The position numbers and the translations under genes are program-made. A DNA stretch of 64,000 nucleotides, taken from the NCBI GenBank assembly GCA_963934165.1, contig CAWVXH010000003.1:43102-107101 (forward strand). The letters run 5' to 3'. This document shows positions 54,104 through 63,202 of the stretch, piece after piece. Numbering within the stretch: position 1 is the first letter of the stretch; each line of letters starts with the position of its first letter. Source of the DNA: an uncultured Candidatus Poseidoniales archaeon. GTDB lineage: Archaea; Thermoplasmatota; Poseidoniia; Poseidoniales; Thalassarchaeaceae. A model generated the notes under the pieces. It searched no databases. It was not told where the DNA came from and saw only the letters and a program-made list of their open reading frames with translations.

Positions 54104-55684
54104 TCAAGCATCCTCTGGGATGTAATAAAGATCAACACTGCCAGTGCCGAGAGCGACTGGTTGACCAACGATGATGTTTTCAGTCACACCACGGAGCTTA
54201 TCTCTCTCACCGATAATACCTGCTCTAAGCAAGTGTGTGACTGTTACTTCGAAAGCCGAACGAGCTAGAATACTGTGTTTAGTACCACTAACTCCATGAC
54301 GTCCAATCGCTCGTACTTCTCCTTCGCTGGTCATAACATCAGAGACCATCAATAAGTGACGAATATCTACATCTAGGCCTGCGCCTTGTAAAGTATCTAA
54401 CATTTCATTGATGATCGCTTGTCGAGCGGCTTCAATTCCCAAGTAGGCATAAATCTCAGTTACGTTATTTGTATAAGTTCGTGCTCGATCAACTCCAGCA
54501 AAAATACTCACCTTAGCAAGATTAGAACCGATTGTAGAGATGTAATAGTCTCCAGTTTCCTTGCTAGGTCCCTGCACATTAGCTCTAATGACGTCCGGTA
54601 AACCTTTTAATCGGAGTTTTTTGATTTTCTCCTCGAGTTGAAGTAACGCGGTGTAAGTAGGTGGATCATTAGCTAAATCAGCTAGGTCATCTTCTTTGAT
54701 AACACCTGGAATAATCTTCAAATTCTTAGGTTTGTCTTCATTATCTGCTTGAATATATAATCGGAGAGCGCGAGATAATTTATCTCGAACTTCTGCTCCA
54801 TTCATCTTTTTCAAACGAAGGTTTCGAGCATTCAATGACAAGCTAATATATCGTTGAGTGATATCTACGTCAATAGAAGCGATGTCTACGGTCGTGGTTG
54901 TTTCGAGACCAGCAGCAATCTCTTGGACGAGTTTTTCATTCGTTCTCAATGGTTTACCCTTAGCATTAAATTCTTCTAAATAAATTCTCATTGTAGGAGT
55001 CTTAGGAACCTTTCTTGCATCTACAATTTCAATAATTCTTGGTAAACCTTGTGTGACGTTGACAGTTGCAACACCAGCATAGTGGAATGTTCTCATCGTC
55101 ATTTGAGTTCCCGGCTCACCAATAGATTGGGCAGTTGTAATACCAACTGCTTCGTGTGGATCTACTCTCGCCTTAGAAAGGTAATACGAAGCTGATTTAA
55201 TGACCTTTTTTGCTTTTGCTGGAGTCAATTTCTTAACATCTCTGGAGATTAATCCATTAACAAGATCGTTTACAATTCTAGGGGACATAGATACATTCAT
55301 CTTTGCAGCTAATTTTGATAGCACTTGATACATTTCTGATTCGACGTCTACATCCCTTAGGATTTGGACCATCTTTGAACCGCTATCATAGTCTTGAATC
55401 GGCAAAGATTTCTTAGCGCGAGTTCTAGAACGAGCACTTGGTTTTCTACGTACTAATGTCTTGTCAATTCTAGCAGCAGCGCGTTGGGCTGCCTTGGATG
55501 AGCCTGCCATTACTTCGAAGATTTTTGACGCTGTTCCTGAATCGGTTCCACATATCTGAGCAATTTGAGCAGAGGTTAATACTTTCACATCATCCCATTT
55601 CTTATCATCAGCAAGTTTGTGAGCGTATTCTTCCTCAATTCCGAGATCCATCAACTTCTTCTTTGTTGCACTCTTTACTACCAT
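54104..55684 (-). CDS. rpoA2: DNA-directed RNA polymerase subunit A'' with ~100-aa N-terminal extension
   Basis: [27 protein letters not shown] and downstream Rpb1 C-terminal-half blocks. ATG overlaps the rpoA' stop (TGATG). Confidence 0.95.
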
Positions 55685-58600
55685 CAGTTTCCACCCCCAA
55701 TAGCATCATCTAGGACTTGATTAATGTCGAATGGTTCACCTTTGCGGCTTCGAGCAGGATCGATACTATCTTCTCCATACTCGAATTGAATGATGCGATC
55801 AGCAGTATTTCTGACAGATCTCATGTCATCATTTGAAACCTTCAAATCATCCATCGCGTTAATCAACCGGCGTTGCATATATCCAGATTTAGAAGTACGA
55901 ACTGCAGTATCGACCAAAGATTCCCGACCAGATACTGACAACATGAAAAACTCGGTTGGTTCAAGCCCACGCTTGAAAGAAGAAGATACGAAACCTTTCT
56001 CTTTAGCACCTTTAACTCCACGTTGGAAGTGAGTTAGGACACGCCCATGATAGCCGCGTTCCAATCTCTTACCACGAACTTTTGGTTGCCCGATTGAACC
56101 TGCCATCATAGCCAAGTTATCCATCGAACCACGTGCACCGGATGTTGCCATCAGAACTGCAGAGTTATCATCTCCAAGGAATGTCTTTGCAACATTACCT
56201 GATTCACCTTTACCTGAATCGAGAATTGTCAAAATATTCTCTTCAAGAGTCTCCATAGGTGTTCGGCCAGGACGAGCTTCGTAGCGGCGACCATCTTTTC
56301 CGAATTTTAATAATTCTTCATCGACAGCATCGCTAGCGCGCTTGTTAATTGCATCAATTTCTGCTTTTGCTTCCGGAGGCAAATCTTCGTCATCAATTCC
56401 GGTTGTGAATCCCATCGAAGTACAAATTGCAATCGTCATCCGTGTCATACGATTGATGAATTCAGCACCAACATCTGAGCCATGAGTTTGAACCACTGCA
56501 TCGAGTAATCGACCGTCTTCGGCACCAATCCCTCGTTTATCGATAGTTCCCGTAACTTTTCCATCTTTGACAATAACGTTATCACCAGATCGGCTCGTAT
56601 AATCTAGATTAAATCCAGTAGGTACAATCAGACTGAGAATATCAGTACCAAGATAACCAGTGACACCATCTCTTTCAATAGATTCTGGTAATTCACCATC
56701 CCATCCAACCGTTCCTAATACTTCCATCACTAATTTTTTCGGGAGGAATCTGTCACCATGTGTCAAAAGATATGCACCAGAAATGTGATCGTGTATTCCA
56801 CCGATAACAGATCCACCATAACGAGGTGTGATGATGTGTTCTTGGACTCTCATTAATATCTTAGCTTCTGCACGTGCTTCTTCAGATTGAATTACGTGAA
56901 GATTCATTTCATCTCCATCAAAATCCGCATTGTATGGAGTACAATCTGCGAGGTTGAATCTGAATGTCTTACCAGCCATCACTCTGATTTCATGAACCAT
57001 CATCGACATTCGATGAAGAGATGGTTGCCGATTGAATATCGTCACATCACCATCAATGAGATGGCGCTCAACTACAACACCAGGTCGTGGATTTCCGTCA
57101 CGGTCGAAAGTGCTTAGTCGATCTTCAACTTCAGTATGGTGGGACTCTCCGAAATCATTCTCAATAGAAGGGCTTCCACAGTGAGGGCAATTAATTTCAA
57201 GATGGGCAGGGAAGAATTCATCTGGATTTGAGTGTTCCCACTTCCAACGATAGTAAATTAGAGCACGTTCATCATCTTCTGCCAGGGGCTGACCGCGTTC
57301 ATCTTCACCTCTGAGGTTAGCAAGAGTTTTTTCGAGATCAACACCCCACTCTTCCTCTAATTCACCAAATGAATTTCTTCTCATTTGGCGCTTTAGCTCA
57401 ATACCGGGGAGGAAATTAGGAGCATGTAATACTTGGTCAAGATCTGCACGATATCCGTTGTATGGTACGTCCTCACTATCCGTAAGACAATCCGGGTTGA
57501 GACATCGGAAACCGGCCCAGATATATTTTGTTCGATCTGTGATTCGAACACGTAATCTATCTCCACGAATAATATAATTGACTCCTGGATGTACATCGGG
57601 ACCTCGTAGAATCATCTGCCGTAATTGTTCTCTATTTCGACTTGTAATTCGAATAGGGACGGTTAATTCTTTTGCAGTCTGAACTGGAATTCCAACTTCA
57701 TTGATACCAAGGTTTGGATCTGGAGAAATAACAGTACGCGCACAGAAATTAACACGCTTTCCTGAAAGGTTACTTCGGAATCTTCCTTCTTTACCCTTCA
57801 ACCGTTGAGTCAAAGTCTTCAATGGACGACCAGATCGGTGTCGAGCAGGAGGGATTCCTGCGGTTTGGTTATCGAAATAGGTAGTACAGTGGTACTGAAG
57901 TAATTCCCAAAGATCCTCTACAATCAATTGTGGGGCTCCAGCGTCACGATTTTCTCGTAGTCTCTGATTTATTCTTAGCACATCAACCAACTTGTGAGTT
58001 AAATCATCCTCTGATCTATCTCCACTATCCAGCGTAATTGATGGCCTGACCGTAATTGGAGGTACTGGTAAAACCTTCATAATTGTCCATTCAGGGCGGC
58101 TAGAGTGGTAATCCATACCAATAAAAATCAAATGTTGATCAGGTATTCTTTCTAACCATTCTCTAATATCACGAGCATTGAGTTTATGCTCACCCTTATT
58201 TTCTCTCTTTTCTTTGTAAGTTGAAGGTTTGTCTAGAATGATTTTACCTTGTTCTGAACCACAATGCATGCAAATAGTTCTCTTTTTGCTTGAACATTCT
58301 TTCTCAATATCCTTAATGATTTTTTTGAATTCACGTGATCCGACCCCATGTTTAATCATTACATCCTTCACACGATCACGATAGTAATCTTGCTCAGATT
58401 TCTCTGGGTCTAATGGGTGAGAGTTTATTTGGCTATGCAGAAGTATTTGACTACATGAATTACATGTAGATTTCAATGACATTTTAATTAAATCAGTGAA
58501 ACCAATGTGCATTACGGGAAGTTCAAGAGCAATGTGACCAAAGTGGCTTGGGCACTCTTCGTGCTTATTCCCACAAGTTTCACAACGCACTCCCGGATCT

Positions 58601-58776
58601 ATTACACCCATTTTTGGATCCATCAATCCCTGCTTGAATGCGTGACCATCGTCACGATAAGTATCTGCAGTCTTGACCTCGACAGAGGACATCTTTCGAA
58701 TCTCATTTGGATCCATTAGACTGAATTTAATTGAGTCAATCCTCTTAGGAATTTTTGCAACATCTTTAGTACTCAT
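55684..58776 (-). CDS. rpoA1: DNA-directed RNA polymerase subunit A' with ~145-aa lineage-specific insertion
   Basis: Zn motifs CETCG..CPSHFGH; [12 protein letters not shown]; [10 protein letters not shown] catalytic loop. Confidence 0.95.
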
Positions 58777-61700
58777 TTTCGGTCCTCCAGCTCAAGTCTC
58801 ATAGCGACCCCTAAACTCTTCATCTCGTCTAGAAGTAGCTTGAATGCATATGAAGTTTGGACAGTGTGAACATCAGCACGATCACCACAATAAGGACAAA
58901 CACTAGTTCGGCGTTTCCAATCATAGTAAGCGATATGCCCACAACCACTAGTGTTACAGACCATTAAGTTCCATCCATCAGACTCATCGAGTAATCTATC
59001 TTTGATAACCATCGATGCACCGTGTGAAATCAAACAATCACGCTCCATTTCACCAAATCTTAGTCCACCCTGTCGTGCACGTCCTTCGGTTGGTTGACGG
59101 GTAAGAATTTGCACGCGTCCGCGACTTCTTGCGTGGATTTTACTACTTACTAAGTGGTGCAGTCTTTGGTAGTAAATTACACCGACAAAGATATCTGCAG
59201 GATATTCTTCACCTGTTTCACCATTAATCATTATTTCACGACCGGTATGGTTGAAGCCATTACGTAAGAGACCGGCTCTAACAGATTCTTCCTTTTCACC
59301 AGTGAATGCTGTTCCATCGACCTTTCGACCTTCCATGGAACCGACCTTTCCACCAATCATTTCGAGAACGTGAGCGACTGTCATTCGCGAAGGAATAGCG
59401 TGTGGATTGATAAGAACATCAGGTACGACACCGTCAACAGTGAAAGGAAGATTTTCTGAATCTACCAATCTACCAATGACACCTTTCTGGCCGTGGCGCG
59501 AAGCAAATTTATCTCCCAACTCAGGGATTTTATTAGTACGTAAAGTGATTCTAACCAATCTTGTAGAATCAAGTGATTCAGTAACGAAGACATTGTCCAC
59601 CCAACCGTATTCACCGTGACGAACCATCATCGAAGATTCACGACGTTCTTGTGCTTGTAGGAAAGCTCCTGCCGCTTCCTCAAGGAAACGTGGAGGACTA
59701 GTCTTCCCAACTAATACCTTAGAATCCACCTTACCACTTGTTAGGAATTCTTCAGGAGTAGGTAAACCATCTCTTTCAAGATGCGAATAATTATCCCATG
59801 ATTTTAATCCTTTAATTTCATCGAGCCCAGTGCCTGGAATTTCGATTCTCTCTTCTTGACCACCAGGGAATCTTTTATTCTCAGCGGTATAAGTTCGAAT
59901 GAAAGAGGAGCGGCCTAATGATCTTTCGACAGATGCACGATTCATGATGATTGCATCCTGCATGTTATATCCATGATGACTCATGATTGCGACCACGTAA
60001 TTTTGCCCTCCAGGACGACGCAGGAAACCAGTTGACTGCATTGCTCGTGTACCAACTATCGATCGTTGAGGGTAGTGCAGAATATGCGCTCTTGTATCAG
60101 GACGCAATCTGTAATTAGCACTTGGTAGTCCAAGGCTCTGTTTGACCATCGCCGTTCCACCCGTAACTCTTGGTGTTGAGTTGTGCTCTGGATATGGTAC
60201 TAGAGATGCACAAACACCTAAAATTAGTTGAGGATCTACTTCTACATGAGTATAAACTAGGATTGTGTGATTCTTTTGTTGTTTCTTAGCTAGAATGTCA
60301 ATATCAGTCTGATAATAGCTAAGTGGAACACTGAAATTTTCAATTTTCTTTTCACCGTTTGAGAGTTGAACTTCAACACGGAGTTTCGCCTTAGAAATTT
60401 CTGGTTCACCCAAGTTCATCCATTCAACCTTTGCAGGGTTAATTGGTCGGCCAAATTTTGGTGATGCTTGAGGAATATCGAAAGGACGTGGAGCGACCAA
60501 TAAATCCTCTTCTTCTTCAGCATCTACCCATTCTACAACTCCTGAAGACACCAAATCATTGAAGATGATTTCACCAGTTCTTAGACCTTCTAAATGTTGT
60601 TTTGATAATTTTAAACTTCCATGCTCGAGAACTAGAAGTGGACGAAGAATTCGTCCACGATCGGTATTTATGAATACATCTTTGTTTTCAGTATCATGAC
60701 GAATACTAACCTCATGTCGAATACGACCAGCTCGTCGGCGGGCCTTGAATTGAGCGACCAGTTTCTTTGGACGCTTGTGTAGACCGAAAATGTCCCCATT
60801 GACGTGAATTCTGGAACCATCTGCCCAACCGGCGGGTGAATCATCAACACCTGCTTCCTTTAGTAGTTCTTTGACATCATCTGATGGCACGTCTTCAGAA
60901 ACGTCAATCATCTGAGCTGCGTTCTTTACAAGACCGCAATTTTGACCTTCGGGAGTCTCATTTGGACACAACCTCCCCCAATGTGTTGGATGAAGGTCTC
61001 GTGCTTCGAAATGAGGTTGACTTCGAACTAATGGACTGGTAACTCGTCGCATATGTGACAGAGCGGACAAATAGGTTGTTCTATCTAGTAATTGGCTAAC
61101 ACCTGAACGACCGCCGACCCAATTACCTGTAGCGAGTGCATGCATGATTTTTGAGGTCAAGACATCAGGCCTTAGACAAGCATTAATTTTGAGATCTCGC
61201 TTACGGTTGTGGTGTCTTTCTAGTTGATATTTTAGATCTCTAGCTAATTGTTGCAAACTAACTCGGAAGAGATCTTCAATTAAATCTCCAGCCAAGCGAA
61301 CACGCTTATTTGCGTAGTGATCCTTATCGTTTGGATCTCGATTTGTAATTGCCATCTCGAGGACTTGACGGACAATACGTCCAAGAAAAATTGCTTTTTT
61401 CTCACGTACATCAGGACCATCACCTAGATGAGGGAGAAGTTCTTTGTCCAACATATTCTGAATTCTAGATTCACGATACTCCTTCTGTTGCCCTGCTGCG
61501 AATTTCTTCTCGAGCCACGCAACTGCTTCGTCTTGAGTTTCCACACCATATTCTTCATTGTCTTTGACGTCGTTAAGGTTTGCAACGGTATATTTCATTG
61601 CTGCGACTGGCCCTGCGATTGCTGCAAAAATCTCTCGGTCATTTTCCATACCTAGTGCTCGCATAAGAAGAACGACTGGAATTGCAGCGGTTCCGGCACT

Positions 61701-62480
61701 TGGAATTTTTACCATAAGCATGCCATCACGACGCTTTTCCACGTTCAGAGGTTTTCGAACACCGTCTTTTTGAGAGAAAATCTTAGCAACTTCAGTTTCA
61801 TGGGCATATTTTTTATTCTTTTCTACCGTAACTCGATTGGGTGCCAAATCTTCCATTGAAATTAGAACTCTCTCAGTTCCATTAATGATAAAATAACCGC
61901 CCGTATCCATTGGATCCTCTCCAGCTTTTTGCCTCAGAGAAACAAGATATTCAGCATCTTCTTCAGATGTATGAGGTGAAAGTTTCCGATTCTCGTCGAT
62001 GTGATCGGAATGTACATTACATCGAGCGGATTTCACCATTATAGGTAAATTTCCAATGTGAACACTAGGTTCATCGACAACTCCGTGAGTATCTCCTGCC
62101 TCGGGAGGGATATCATCACGATAAATTTTGAAATCCATGTAAATAGGTGAAAAATAGGTGAGCTTTCTGACACGGCATTCCATTGGAGTAGCAGGGTGTT
62201 CAGCACCATTTGCTTCCCGTATAGTAGGCTTGCCTAATCTAAGACCCTTCAATCGAACAAAAATTTCTTTGTCTAAAACGTCGAGTTTGATTGCGCCCCC
62301 GCCAGTTTCCCCGCCAGGAATCATATCTAGGGGTTCATCAGTTCCAATTCGGATATTTCTAACGATTTTTTCCATACGGCTTGCACGTGCTTCACCGCCT
62401 AGAATACAATCGTTATATGATGCAAGTTGGTGGTTTACCATGCTTCGTCTTTGAAAATAACTCTCTACAATTTCCTTCAT
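58773..62480 (-). CDS. rpoB: DNA-directed RNA polymerase subunit B (unsplit)
   Basis: Single 1235-aa ORF with GRHGQKG-type (ASRHGQKGV), GEMERDCLISHGA and the C-terminal Zn ribbon CNTSGC...CPYCG. Confidence 0.95.
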   Translation of the reverse strand: MKEIVESYFQRRSMVNHQLASYNDCILGGEARASRMEKIVRNIRIGTDEPLDMIPGGETGGGAIKLDVLDKEIFVRLKGLRLGKPTIREANGAEHPATPMECRVRKLTYFSPIYMDFKIYRDDIPPEAGDTHGVVDEPSVHIGNLPIMVKSARCNVHSDHIDENRKLSPHTSEEDAEYLVSLRQKAGEDPMDTGGYFIINGTERVLISMEDLAPNRVTVEKNKKYAHETEVAKIFSQKDGVRKPLNVEKRRDGMLMVKIPSAGTAAIPVVLLMRALGMENDREIFAAIAGPVAAMKYTVANLNDVKDNEEYGVETQDEAVAWLEKKFAAGQQKEYRESRIQNMLDKELLPHLGDGPDVREKKAIFLGRIVRQVLEMAITNRDPNDKDHYANKRVRLAGDLIEDLFRVSLQQLARDLKYQLERHHNRKRDLKINACLRPDVLTSKIMHALATGNWVGGRSGVSQLLDRTTYLSALSHMRRVTSPLVRSQPHFEARDLHPTHWGRLCPNETPEGQNCGLVKNAAQMIDVSEDVPSDDVKELLKEAGVDDSPAGWADGSRIHVNGDIFGLHKRPKKLVAQFKARRRAGRIRHEVSIRHDTENKDVFINTDRGRILRPLLVLEHGSLKLSKQHLEGLRTGEIIFNDLVSSGVVEWVDAEEEEDLLVAPRPFDIPQASPKFGRPINPAKVEWMNLGEPEISKAKLRVEVQLSNGEKKIENFSVPLSYYQTDIDILAKKQQKNHTILVYTHVEVDPQLILGVCASLVPYPEHNSTPRVTGGTAMVKQSLGLPSANYRLRPDTRAHILHYPQRSIVGTRAMQSTGFLRRPGGQNYVVAIMSHHGYNMQDAIIMNRASVERSLGRSSFIRTYTAENKRFPGGQEERIEIPGTGLDEIKGLKSWDNYSHLERDGLPTPEEFLTSGKVDSKVLVGKTSPPRFLEEAAGAFLQAQERRESSMMVRHGEYGWVDNVFVTESLDSTRLVRITLRTNKIPELGDKFASRHGQKGVIGRLVDSENLPFTVDGVVPDVLINPHAIPSRMTVAHVLEMIGGKVGSMEGRKVDGTAFTGEKEESVRAGLLRNGFNHTGREIMINGETGEEYPADIFVGVIYYQRLHHLVSSKIHARSRGRVQILTRQPTEGRARQGGLRFGEMERDCLISHGASMVIKDRLLDESDGWNLMVCNTSGCGHIAYYDWKRRTSVCPYCGDRADVHTVQTSYAFKLLLDEMKSLGVAMRLELEDRK

Positions 62481-62492
62481 TTAATCAACCCC

Positions 62493-63080
62493 TCACGTAT
62501 TCTCCACAATTAGTCGGAAAGCAGTACTTGAACCTGCAGATCTGCTATACCTGTCGACCCGCACAACCCTGTTAGTTAACCATCCAGCAGGTAATTCATG
62601 GTTATCAATTTCTTCTGTTTCCTTTATTGATTGAATTGCTGGATCTGTAATCAAAATTTTAGGAAGTAATTCTTTGGCCAATCTGCTGGTCCCATCAACA
62701 TCTGGTTGAATCAGATTCCAAGGAGCTAATACTGATGCTTCCTCTTCGACAGGAACTAATTCGTGATGAGGAACCAAGAAGTGATTTAAGACATTAAAAC
62801 GGTCAATGCCTTGAGGGATATCTTCATCGAGAATAGCCTTTCTAGATATTGTAATTCTACTACTACGACTTCGCTTACGGGATGCCATTTGTTCACGGAT
62901 AATTCCCATGATGTTTTCCAAATCAGAATCGCCAGATTTGAGATCAACCTTCTTTGCAACCTGTTCAACGGTCATACGCTTAATTGCGTCCATGTTTGCG
63001 TCGTCGGCAAGTTTGTGCGCGTGCTCCTCAGAGACACCCAATTCCATTAGTCGCTTTTTTGTTGAACTCTTAACTGCCAA
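62493..63080 (-). CDS. rpoH: DNA-directed RNA polymerase subunit H with ~90-aa N-terminal extension
   Basis: Core HFLVPHHELV...LPKILITDPA...RVDRYSRSAGSSTAFRLIV. The TTG at 63080 gives an N-terminus (M)AVKSSTKKR, parallel to the RpoA'' [10 protein letters not shown]. Confidence 0.85.
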   Translation of the reverse strand: MAVKSSTKKRLMELGVSEEHAHKLADDANMDAIKRMTVEQVAKKVDLKSGDSDLENIMGIIREQMASRKRSRSSRITISRKAILDEDIPQGIDRFNVLNHFLVPHHELVPVEEEASVLAPWNLIQPDVDGTSRLAKELLPKILITDPAIQSIKETEEIDNHELPAGWLTNRVVRVDRYSRSAGSSTAFRLIVENT

Positions 63081-63128
63081 ATCATCGCCCCGGGCCAGCA
63101 AAAACCGTGAGCCTGCGGCTTAGTCAGG

Positions 63129-63202
63129 CGGGCCCGAGGGGATTCGAACCCCTGGCCACCGGGTTAAAAGCCCGGCGCTCTACCTGACTAAGCTACAGGC
63201 CC
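63129..63202 (-). tRNA. tRNA-Lys (anticodon UUU), CCA not encoded
   Basis: Minus strand GGGCCUG-UA-GCUU-AGUCAGGUA-GAGC-G-CCGGG-CUUUUAA-CCCGG-UGGCC-AGGGG-UUCGAAU-CCCCU-CGGGCCC-G. All four arms pair. Confidence 0.9.

What the first reader, a model, noticed from the sequence alone, without database searches (positions are those of the whole stretch)
62805..63080. RpoH carries an N-terminal HhH-like module homologous to the one on RpoA''
Canonical archaeal RpoH starts near ...FNVLNHFLVPHH. Here about 90 extra residues precede it: (M)AVKSSTKKRLMELGVSEEHAHKLADDANMDAIKRMTVEQVAKKV, then a basic linker SRKRSRSSRITISRK. The first ~45 aa align almost residue for residue with the N-terminus of RpoA'' ([44 protein letters not shown]), which is also followed by a basic linker. 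The L..LG(I/V)...A.KLA pattern looks like a helix-hairpin-helix, non-specific DNA-binding motif. The same accessory module on two different RNAP subunits in one operon is unusual. It might tether DNA at the downstream or jaw side of the enzyme.
Basis: seen in the sequence. Interest (0 to 1): 0.6.

Follow-up and report, generated by a model that had tools for sequence, protein, structure and literature searches.

The report
Twin tethered HhH domains on polymerase
In Marine Group II ocean archaea, RNA polymerase subunit H begins with an extra small helix-hairpin-helix-type domain on a flexible, positively charged tether; it is a copy of the one on neighbouring subunit A'', and probably gives the enzyme two extra arms for holding DNA or docking partners.

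Summary
rpoH (62493-63080, minus strand) encodes 195 aa, not the usual ~80.
- Residues 1-67 fold as a five-helix (HhH)2/SAM-like domain.
- Residues 68-93 are a disordered Arg/Lys-rich tether.
- Residues 94-195 are the Rpb5-C core.

Domain plus tether is paralogous to the N-terminus of RpoA'' (41% identity over 83 aa; profile-profile E 1e-24). The TTG start is backed by 31 relatives, an SD-like G-run and dN/dS of 0.25.

Both copies occur in essentially every Poseidoniales genome searched. RpoH is canonical in all other Thermoplasmatota sampled, including MGIII.

New here: the RpoA'' extension is older. Methanomassiliicoccales RpoA'' starts with a Pfam-detectable HhH domain plus basic tether. 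One family carries textbook HHH_5 repeats (106 bits) and another only a polybasic tail. So the module probably moved from A'' to H once, in the MGII ancestor.

Most likely function (inferred): two tethered, weak dsDNA-binding arms at the downstream-DNA side, analogous to the Rpb5 jaw, Rpo13 and bacterial alpha-CTD.

Rival: a protein-docking handle. About 40 unrelated protein clusters from unbinned metagenomic DNA start with the same head.

This scan has already reported the feature on at least six other MGII genomes. I found no paper describing it.

The parts
62493..63080 (-). rpoH (Rpo5) CDS, 195 aa, TTG start at 63080, stop at 62493-62495
62880..63080 (-). RpoH residues 1-67: five-helix (HhH)2/SAM-like module (helices 6-13, 18-25, 30-34, 38-45, 52-67)
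   Evidence: AF2 pLDDT 85.6 for the module alone and ~82 in the full-length model; fold matches
62802..62879 (-). RpoH residues 68-93: disordered Arg/Lys-rich tether with a conserved R-I-T-I-S-R-K-like segment followed by an acidic D-x-D-I-P stretch
   Evidence: No secondary structure over residues 68-104, lowest pLDDT there (10-residue block means 45-51 for 71-100); linker composition across 21 orthologues; alignment A3
62496..62801 (-). RpoH residues 94-195: Rpb5-C/RpoH core. It is diverged and carries a ~24-aa insertion relative to the Pfam model
63088..63091 (-). GGGG, an SD-like run 8-11 nt upstream of the TTG start
   Evidence: Read; conserved G-run in relatives
63127..63202 (-). tRNA-Lys(UUU), 46 nt upstream of rpoH. 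The same arrangement is seen in the 20 cross-family relatives examined
54104..55684 (-). rpoA'' (Rpo1C) CDS, 526 aa. The TIGR02389 core starts at residue 134
55505..55684 (-). RpoA'' residues 1-60: sister copy of the module, with the better-preserved second hairpin (C-G-x-D-S...A..I)
55385..55504 (-). RpoA'' residues 61-100: basic tether, net charge +4 to +10 across orthologues

Best explanation
Shown:
- rpoH of this Marine Group II (Thalassarchaeaceae-type) archaeon encodes one 195-aa protein. It consists of an N-terminal five-helix (HhH)2/SAM-like domain, a ~26-35-residue disordered polybasic tether, and the canonical RpoH core.
- Domain plus tether is a paralogue of the N-terminus of RpoA'' in the same operon.

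Probable:
- The RpoA'' copy descends from an (HhH)2-plus-basic-tether extension of RpoA'' that is common in Thermoplasmatota.
- A copy was transferred to RpoH once, before the MGIIa/MGIIb split.

Inferred mechanism:
- Rpo5's N-terminus lies where the eukaryotic Rpb5 jaw domain and the crenarchaeal Rpo13 contact downstream DNA. The A'' N-terminus belongs to the same shelf/cleft region.
- So the enzyme carries two flexibly tethered arms. They bind duplex DNA weakly and without sequence preference, through the hairpins, the conserved N-terminal Lys cluster and the Arg/Lys tether.
- The arms would guide or hold downstream or flanking DNA.
- As with bacterial alpha-CTD, the same arms may also be contact points for other proteins.
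For: Architecture and start codon.

Fold:
- AF2 of the module gives pLDDT 85.6.
- VIA matches at Z 6.2-7.4 over 63-66 of 68 residues include FANCM, XPF, NusA AR, DisA and Topo V (HhH)2 domains.
- Foldseek's top rows include FANCM-FAAP24, the RAD51 N-domain, UvrC and RadA.
- The full-length model has two domains joined by an unstructured stretch with pLDDT block means of 45-51, and pTM 0.46.

Descent:
- Methanomassiliicoccales RpoA'' N-termini (alignment A2) match Pfam HHH_2 in 21/24 members (best 1.4e-6) and HHH_5 in 10/24. They also match Topo V HhH repeats in the PDB at 5e-16.
- A1 against A2 by hhalign gives E 3.3e-4 over 55 collinear columns.
- One Thermoplasmatota family has RpoA'' with canonical HHH_5, 106 bits.
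- Others have purely polybasic N-terminal tails on RpoA'' or RpoH. This points to selection for DNA-contacting elements at these termini.

Distribution:
- All 74 Poseidoniales genomes sampled match the profile, 72 of them at two places (one has a single match; one has three because RpoA'' sits on two contigs). No strong match in 226 other genomes of the phylum.
- RpoH open frames are 76-181 aa outside MGII and 201-252 aa inside.
- MGIII RpoH is 81 aa.
- Tree: the A''-type clade has 100/97 support and contains both MGII families.

Position on the enzyme: PMC3479171 places the Rpb5 N-domain 'guard rail' and Rpo13 next to the Rpo5 N-terminus on downstream DNA. It predicts that other archaea have analogous elements there.
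Against:
- The MGII module has lost the canonical G-h-G hairpins and is net neutral to slightly acidic (charge -3 to +4). It scores as well against protein-binding SAM domains (Z 7-8) as against HhH domains.
- No Pfam HhH model detects it.
- Many surface residues are conserved across both paralogues (the K-S-x-T-K-K and A-H-x-L-A-D-D segments), more than non-specific DNA contact needs.
- The same head on ~40 unrelated non-polymerase protein clusters fits a specific docking partner better than generic DNA affinity.
- The link to the Methanomassiliicoccales module rests on a modest P value (2e-4 to 4e-3).
- The proximity of the A'' N-terminus to Rpo5 and DNA comes from my general knowledge of Pol II and archaeal RNAP structures. 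It was not computed.
Confidence: 0.5

Rival explanations
1. The module is mainly a protein-protein docking handle (SAM-like). Either the H-type and A''-type copies pair with each other, as the paralogous (HhH)2 pairs XPF-ERCC1 and FANCM-FAAP24 do, or both bind one common partner. Proteins of mobile elements that carry the same head would use it to reach, or compete at, that site on the transcription machine.
For: - The best fold matches are SAM domains (Z 7.5-8.1) and heterodimerising (HhH)2 domains such as FANCM-FAAP24 and XPF.
- Surface-exposed charged residues are strongly conserved in both paralogues.
- 49 of the top 150 cluster representatives are at least 150 aa and lack both polymerase cores. 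A handful of these look like RpoA'' N-terminal fragments; the rest are unrelated proteins that start with the same head.
- Heads of both the H type and the A'' type were captured independently several times (tree).
- None of these proteins lies in the 74 MGII genomes searched with the profile.
- The one genomic context recovered is a run of genes with no Pfam hit and only marginal PHROG hits.
Against: - No partner has been identified and no complex could be modelled here.
- No module was found in IMG/VR or in GenBank phage records with these queries, so a viral origin of the accessory proteins is unproven.
- The ancestry from canonical DNA-binding HhH repeats and the polybasic tethers argue for nucleic-acid contact.
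- A generic DNA-binding head could also be captured repeatedly.
Confidence: 0.3
2. The module is a structural filler. It folds back onto the polymerase, for example into the void between Rpo5 and the clamp head that Rpo13 fills in Sulfolobus. There it would stabilise assembly of a polymerase whose RpoH core and A' subunit are unusually diverged, and it would have no role in binding DNA or partners.
For: - The MGII RpoH core is highly diverged (PF01191 E 1e-5 to 1e-15, against 1e-23 to 1e-35 in most of the rest of the phylum) and carries insertions.
- PMC3479171 describes a conserved void next to Rpo5.
Against: - The 26-35-residue disordered polybasic tether and the low pTM (0.46) argue for a mobile arm rather than a packed element.
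- This does not explain the same head on unrelated proteins.
Confidence: 0.12
3. The extension is an annotation artefact: translation of rpoH starts downstream of the module, or the module is a separate small gene.
For: - The start codon is TTG, and a second in-frame TTG lies 7 codons upstream.
- Some public gene calls differ in length.
Against: - The frame is continuous in every genome examined.
- The start position is conserved: ATG in 18 of 20 cross-family relatives.
- The residues are under purifying selection, with invariant residues from position 5 on, and an SD-like run lies upstream.
- No stop or start separates module and core.
Confidence: 0.02

Closest known systems
Eukaryotic Rpb5 N-terminal 'jaw' domain (Pfam RNA_pol_Rpb5_N)
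   Same: It is an extra domain fused to the N-terminus of the Rpb5-C/RpoH core. That is the position from which it can line the downstream DNA path as a 'guard rail' (PMC3479171).
   Different: There is no sequence match. The MGII module is a 65-aa all-helical domain on a long disordered basic tether, not a rigid ~140-aa domain. It is an independent acquisition confined to one archaeal order.
Rpo13 of Sulfolobales/Desulfurococcales RNA polymerase
   Same: It is a small helical element with a lysine-rich tail sitting beside Rpo5. It binds dsDNA weakly (Kd ~2 uM) at the downstream end of the cleft. PMC3479171 predicted analogous elements in other archaea.
   Different: Rpo13 is a separate subunit with a helix-turn-helix topology. 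Here the element is covalently fused, is (HhH)2/SAM-like, and is present twice, on RpoH and on RpoA''.
Bacterial RNA polymerase alpha C-terminal domain (alpha-CTD, Pfam RNA_pol_A_CTD)
   Same: There are two copies per enzyme of a small HhH-containing, SAM-like-fold domain on flexible tethers. That domain binds DNA and also serves as a docking site for regulators. The canonical HhH extension of RpoA'' in a related family even scores above the alpha-CTD Pfam threshold (26.1 against 23.8 bits).
   Different: The subunits differ (H and A'', not the alpha homologues D/L). The domains are N-terminal, not C-terminal. The MGII module itself gives no alpha-CTD match. Any similarity of function is an analogy.
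(HhH)2 domains: Topoisomerase V repeats, RadA/Rad51 N-domain, XPF/ERCC1 and FANCM/FAAP24 C-terminal domains, NusA AR1/AR2, DisA
   Same: They share the five-helix topology: two helix-hairpin-helix motifs joined by a connector helix. Fold matches reach Z 6-7.4 over nearly the full module. The sister lineage's RpoA'' module matches these families by sequence.
   Different: The MGII module has degenerate hairpins (L-G-[IV]-x-E; the second one is lost in RpoH). It is not detected by HHH_2, HHH_5 or HHH models.

Membership tests
RpoH / Rpo5 (Pfam RNA_pol_Rpb5_C; NCBIfam NF007129) | Rpb5-C core domain detected above the family threshold | tested here: met
   PF01191 scores 44.2 bits against a cut-off of 23.5, over residues 95-191. 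NF007129 scores 47.4 bits, below its equivalog cut-off of 83, which reflects the diverged core.
RpoH / Rpo5 (Pfam RNA_pol_Rpb5_C; NCBIfam NF007129) | First gene of the rpoH-rpoB-rpoA'-rpoA'' operon | tested here: met
   The minus-strand ORF order is rpoH 62493-63080, rpoB 58773-62480, rpoA' 55684-58776, rpoA'' 54104-55684.
(HhH)2 domain (Pfam HHH_5 / HHH_2) | Sequence match to an HhH profile above threshold | tested here: not met
   Only 3 of 42 modules match HHH_5, with best E 0.032. PF14520 searched over the own genome at E<=10 does not hit either module.
(HhH)2 domain (Pfam HHH_5 / HHH_2) | Five-helix fold: two helix-hairpin-helix motifs plus a connector helix | tested here: met
   The AF2 model has helices 6-14, 18-25, 30-34, 38-44 and 52-66. 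(HhH)2 chains align at Z 6.2-7.4 with rmsd 2.5-3.3 over 63-66 residues. SAM domains score equally well, so the fold class is shared, not discriminated.
(HhH)2 domain (Pfam HHH_5 / HHH_2) | Homology to sequences that are themselves recognisable HhH domains | tested here: inconclusive
   hhalign against the Methanomassiliicoccales RpoA'' module (HHH_2 in 21/24 members) gives E 3.3e-4 and probability 38%. Same position and same architecture support homology, but the score alone is modest.
(HhH)2 domain (Pfam HHH_5 / HHH_2) | Non-sequence-specific dsDNA binding through hairpin backbone amides | not testable with these tools
   This needs EMSA, NMR or a structure.
SAM (sterile alpha motif) domain | Five-helix SAM fold used for protein-protein or RNA contacts | tested here: inconclusive
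   The top VIA rows are SAM domains at Z 7.5-8.1. These are within 1 Z unit of the HhH rows and below the level the tool calls decisive for helical folds. No SAM Pfam family is among the recurrent hits for A1.
Eukaryotic Rpb5 N-terminal domain (Pfam RNA_pol_Rpb5_N) | Sequence similarity to the Rpb5 jaw domain | tested here: not met
   There is no such hit at E<=1 for full-length RpoH or for the 90-aa extension.
Bacterial alpha-CTD (Pfam RNA_pol_A_CTD) | Sequence match to PF03118 | tested here: not met
   PF03118 is not among the 25 most recurrent families listed for the 42 modules at E<=10. It is matched only by the canonical HhH extension of RpoA'' in another family.
Rpo13 | Separate small HTH subunit bound between Rpo5 and the clamp head | tested here: not met
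   The element here is fused to RpoH and RpoA'' and has a different topology. Whether it occupies the Rpo13 site is not testable here.

The most novel reading that the evidence does not exclude
The module is a specific docking tag. The H-type and A''-type heads on the polymerase form or bind a defined site. Dozens of proteins encoded on unbinned mobile or virus-like DNA of Marine Group II plankton have copied the heads from the host's own polymerase genes, so as to plug themselves into the host transcription machine. That would be molecular mimicry of polymerase subunit domains by mobile elements in one of the ocean's most abundant archaeal groups.
Probability: 0.2. Interest if true: 0.8.

Novelty: new variant of a known kind. 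Interest (0 to 1): 0.55.

Why it matters
Textbook accounts, and PMC3479171 explicitly, hold that archaeal Rpo5 lacks any N-terminal domain. On that view the space beside it on the downstream DNA channel is filled by the Rpb5 jaw only in eukaryotes and by Rpo13 only in some Crenarchaeota.

Poseidoniales are among the most abundant archaea in the surface ocean. They show a third, independent solution: a DNA-binding-type domain fused to Rpo5 itself, duplicated from A''.

The phylum-wide series gives a natural experiment in how multisubunit polymerases acquire accessory DNA-contact or regulator-contact arms. The series runs from no extension, through a polybasic tail, one HhH domain and HhH repeats, to HhH on two subunits.

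If the accessory 'head' proteins do dock on the polymerase, this would open a way to study virus-host or mobile element-host conflict in an uncultured lineage.

Tried and rejected
- Pfam, NCBIfam and PDB sequence searches with the MGII module or its profile gave only noise: ADH_Fe_C, Sigma70_r4_2 and a designed repeat protein. I do not read the weak sigma-70 region 4 hits (8/42, best E 0.0035) as an HTH assignment, because the fold model and the ancestry point to HhH.
- Foldseek against the PDB gave no match at E<=0.001. Only the VIA-align Z-scores were usable, and they do not separate SAM from (HhH)2.
- The single metagenome scan recovered one such context (L090) and 29 ordinary rpoH operons.
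- Two IMG/VR scans and one GenBank-phage tblastn found no module-bearing viral record. I therefore do not call the accessory proteins viral.
- Literature searches found nothing on this feature. The 2026 review PMC13257274 treats Rpo6 and Rpo8, not Rpo5 extensions.
- The two apparently long RpoH frames outside MGII (family f20, 160-181 aa) turned out to be short basic tails, not domains.
- A complex model of RpoH with RpoA'' could not be made, because the structure tool takes single natural chains only.

Full report
**What is there**

The minus strand carries rpoH (62493-63080), rpoB (58773-62480), rpoA' (55684-58776) and rpoA'' (54104-55684). tRNA-Lys(UUU) lies 46 nt upstream of rpoH.

In RpoH, the Pfam Rpb5-C model matches residues 95-191 and the NCBIfam RpoH model matches residues 94-193. 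About 93 residues precede the canonical protein.

BLASTP aligns RpoH 1-81 with RpoA'' 1-81: 34/83 identical, E 2e-14. The whole 1.47-Mb assembly contains the module at these two places only. The similarity runs through the basic linker, which in both proteins contains a short alternating hydrophobic/basic segment.

**Is it translated from the proposed TTG?**

I extracted rpoH and rpoA'' from 20 relatives spanning three families of the order.
- At the aligned first codon, 18 have ATG, one TTG and one GTG.
- Upstream in frame one reads through the tRNA gene.
- All 11 same-genus relatives have TTG at the same position. The in-frame residues just upstream differ freely between them.
- A G-rich SD-like run sits 6-12 nt upstream everywhere.
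- The Met at codon 12 is not conserved.
- Residues 5, 7 and 8 are invariant over all 42 modules.
- dN/dS is 0.25 for the RpoH module, 0.13 for the RpoA'' module and 0.20 for the RpoH core.
- Most public gene calls are 195 aa.

The reading 'separate gene or downstream start' is effectively excluded.

**Fold**

AF2 on the 42-sequence module alignment gives pLDDT 85.6 and five helices: 6-14, 18-25, 30-34, 38-44 and 52-66.

Foldseek finds nothing significant. Its top rows are FANCM-FAAP24, the RAD51 N-domain, NusA, UvrC, RadA and SAM domains.

VIA-align against 48,161 chains gives:
- SAM domains at Z 7.5-8.1;
- (HhH)2 domains at Z 6.2-7.4, covering 63-66 of 68 residues: FANCM, XPF, NusA AR, DisA, Topo V.

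These belong to one fold class and the scores do not separate them.

Full-length RpoH models as two domains joined by an unstructured stretch (residues 68-104, pLDDT block means 45-51), with pTM 0.46. This is a tethered arm. The tether carries net charge 0 to +7 in RpoH and +4 to +10 in RpoA''. The folded module is about neutral.

**Distribution**

A single-sequence search finds two copies in nearly all genomes of the order, and none in the other families of the class.

The 42-sequence profile gives the following:
- all 74 Poseidoniales genomes sampled match, 72 of them at two places;
- only four weak hits (E 0.002-0.008) appear in 226 other Thermoplasmatota genomes.

PF01191 over 111 genomes gives RpoH open frames of 76-151 aa outside MGII. 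Two frames of 160-181 aa in one family are only basic tails. Inside MGII the frames are 201-252 aa. MGIII RpoH is a plain 81-aa protein.

Source names and earlier notes identify the lineage as Marine Group II, with Candidatus Thalassarchaeum among the named hits.

RpoA'' of other Thermoplasmatota also begins with extra sequence.

- *Methanomassiliicoccales.* Names come. All 40 genomes of one family, plus several other families, start with a ~60-aa module followed by a Ser/Lys/Arg-rich tether.
  - The module's alignment (A2) matches Pfam HHH_2 in 21/24 members (best 1.4e-6) and HHH_5 in 10/24.
  - It also matches Topo V (HhH)2 repeats (5e-16), DisA, Hef and LigA in the PDB.
- *Other families*.
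  - One has canonical HHH_5 repeats on the RpoA'' N-terminus (106 bits; also above the alpha-CTD threshold).
  - One has a purely Lys-rich ~125-aa tail.
  - One has no extension.
  - MGIII and one further family have 350-aa extensions that begin with an HhH-like head.
- *Link to the MGII module.* hhalign between the MGII modules and A2 gives E 3.3e-4 over 55 collinear columns: 2.4e-4 for the H type alone and 4e-3 for the A'' type alone. H type against A'' type gives 1e-24.
- *Tree.* MGII modules form one clade against the Methanomassiliicoccales modules (100/100). The A''-type modules of both MGII families form one clade (100/97).

The simplest history has three steps:
1. an ancestral RpoA'' HhH extension;
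2. strong divergence on the MGII stem;
3. one duplication onto RpoH before the MGIIa/b split.

The link in step 2 is probable, not proven.

**The same head on other proteins**

The profile search of 1.84 billion cluster representatives finds only 207 proteins at E<=0.001. Of the top 150:
- 18 contain a polymerase core;
- 83 are short fragments;
- 49 are at least 150 aa without either core. A handful of these look like RpoA'' N-terminal fragments. The rest are unrelated proteins that begin at Met1 with the head, mostly of the A'' type.

Examples recur in independent data sets. They include an AAA_15/AAA_21 ATPase and Cys-rich proteins. In the tree they attach to H-type MGIIb, H-type MGIIa or A''-type modules, so there were several independent captures.

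None lies in the 74 MGII genomes searched with the profile. The one context recovered (L090) is a run of nine genes with no Pfam hit and only marginal PHROG hits. No copy was found in IMG/VR or GenBank phage records. Their replicon type is therefore unknown.

**Mechanism**

*Shown:* the architecture, the paralogy, the conservation and the flexible tether.

*Inferred:* PMC3479171 shows three things.
- Archaeal Rpo5 lacks that domain.
- Rpo13, a small helical protein with a Lys-rich tail and weak dsDNA affinity, fills that place in Sulfolobus.

The authors speculated that other archaea have analogous elements. An N-terminal HhH-type domain with a polybasic tether on Rpo5 fits that prediction.

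Three observations make DNA contact the most economical reading (about 0.5):
- the second copy on A'', which by my knowledge of Pol II architecture lies in the same shelf/cleft region;
- the canonical DNA-binding HhH repeats on A'' in relatives;
- the purely polybasic tails in still other relatives.

Three observations keep a docking-handle model alive (about 0.3):
- the degenerate hairpins;
- the conserved charged surface;
- the many accessory head proteins.

The two models are not exclusive, as bacterial alpha-CTD shows.

**Comparison and novelty**

The feature works like the Rpb5 jaw, Rpo13 or alpha-CTD, but is a member of none of them by sequence. It is an (HhH)2-class fold that fails the Pfam HhH sequence tests. 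I found no paper describing it.

The scan itself has reported it before on at least six other MGII genomes, with similar conclusions. It is a recurrent, consistent finding, not a new one for this project.

Noticed in passing
window 63081-63126 (minus strand), between tRNA-Lys and rpoH: Only 46 nt separate tRNA-Lys(UUU) from the rpoH start. They hold a small hairpin (GCCTG...CAGGC) followed by a T5 run, then the SD-like G-run. A hairpin plus T-run is kept even in same-genus relatives where the tRNA is not immediately upstream. I see no room for a separate TATA promoter, so co-transcription with the tRNA or regulated read-through is possible.
   Followed up: partly
window 62496-62801 (RpoH core): The MGII RpoH core is unusually diverged: PF01191 E 1e-5 to 1e-15, against 1e-23 to 1e-35 in most of the rest of the phylum. 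It carries a ~24-aa insertion. MGIIa has two further insertions, giving 215-216 aa in total.
   Followed up: partly
own genome contig C23:441-1535 (locus L087): This is a third HhH-headed protein (364 aa). Its N-terminal module resembles the Methanomassiliicoccales RpoA'' head (35% identity) with a weak HHH_5 hit. A basic linker, coiled coil, CxxC...CxxC ribbon and an unknown C-terminal domain follow. Homologues of 362-413 aa occur in both MGII families.
   Followed up: partly
loci L046 (MGIII), L045, L203: RpoA'' of MGIII and of another Thermoplasmatota family is 735-860 aa. A ~350-aa N-terminal extension starts with an HhH-like head and contains a shared unknown domain (W-S/T-x-P-x-G ... F-x-Y-P/L motif region) with no Pfam match.
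   Followed up: partly
loci L202 and L201: One Thermoplasmatota family has RpoA'' with two or three textbook GIG-type HHH_5 domains at its N-terminus (106 bits). Another has only a ~125-aa Lys-rich low-complexity N-terminal tail.
   Followed up: yes
proteins P0171, P0194, P0197, P0200, P0204, P0212-P0218 and others; locus L090:9001-10239: About 40 clusters of unrelated proteins from metagenomes start (rarely end) with the polymerase-type head. P0204 is an AAA_15/AAA_21 ATPase. A member of the P0197 cluster comes from a TARA 0.1-0.22 um size fraction. In L090 the neighbours have no known families.
   Followed up: partly
protein P0199 (2474 aa): A giant repeat protein matches an 18-residue stretch of the module profile (positions 22-39) 18 times. 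It carries Cna_B-type domains. This is probably a chance motif resemblance.
   Followed up: no
loci L088, L089 (family f20): RpoH in another Thermoplasmatota family has a 25-60-aa Lys/Arg/Pro-rich N-terminal tail without a folded domain. This is an independent case of positive charge added at the Rpo5 N-terminus.
   Followed up: partly
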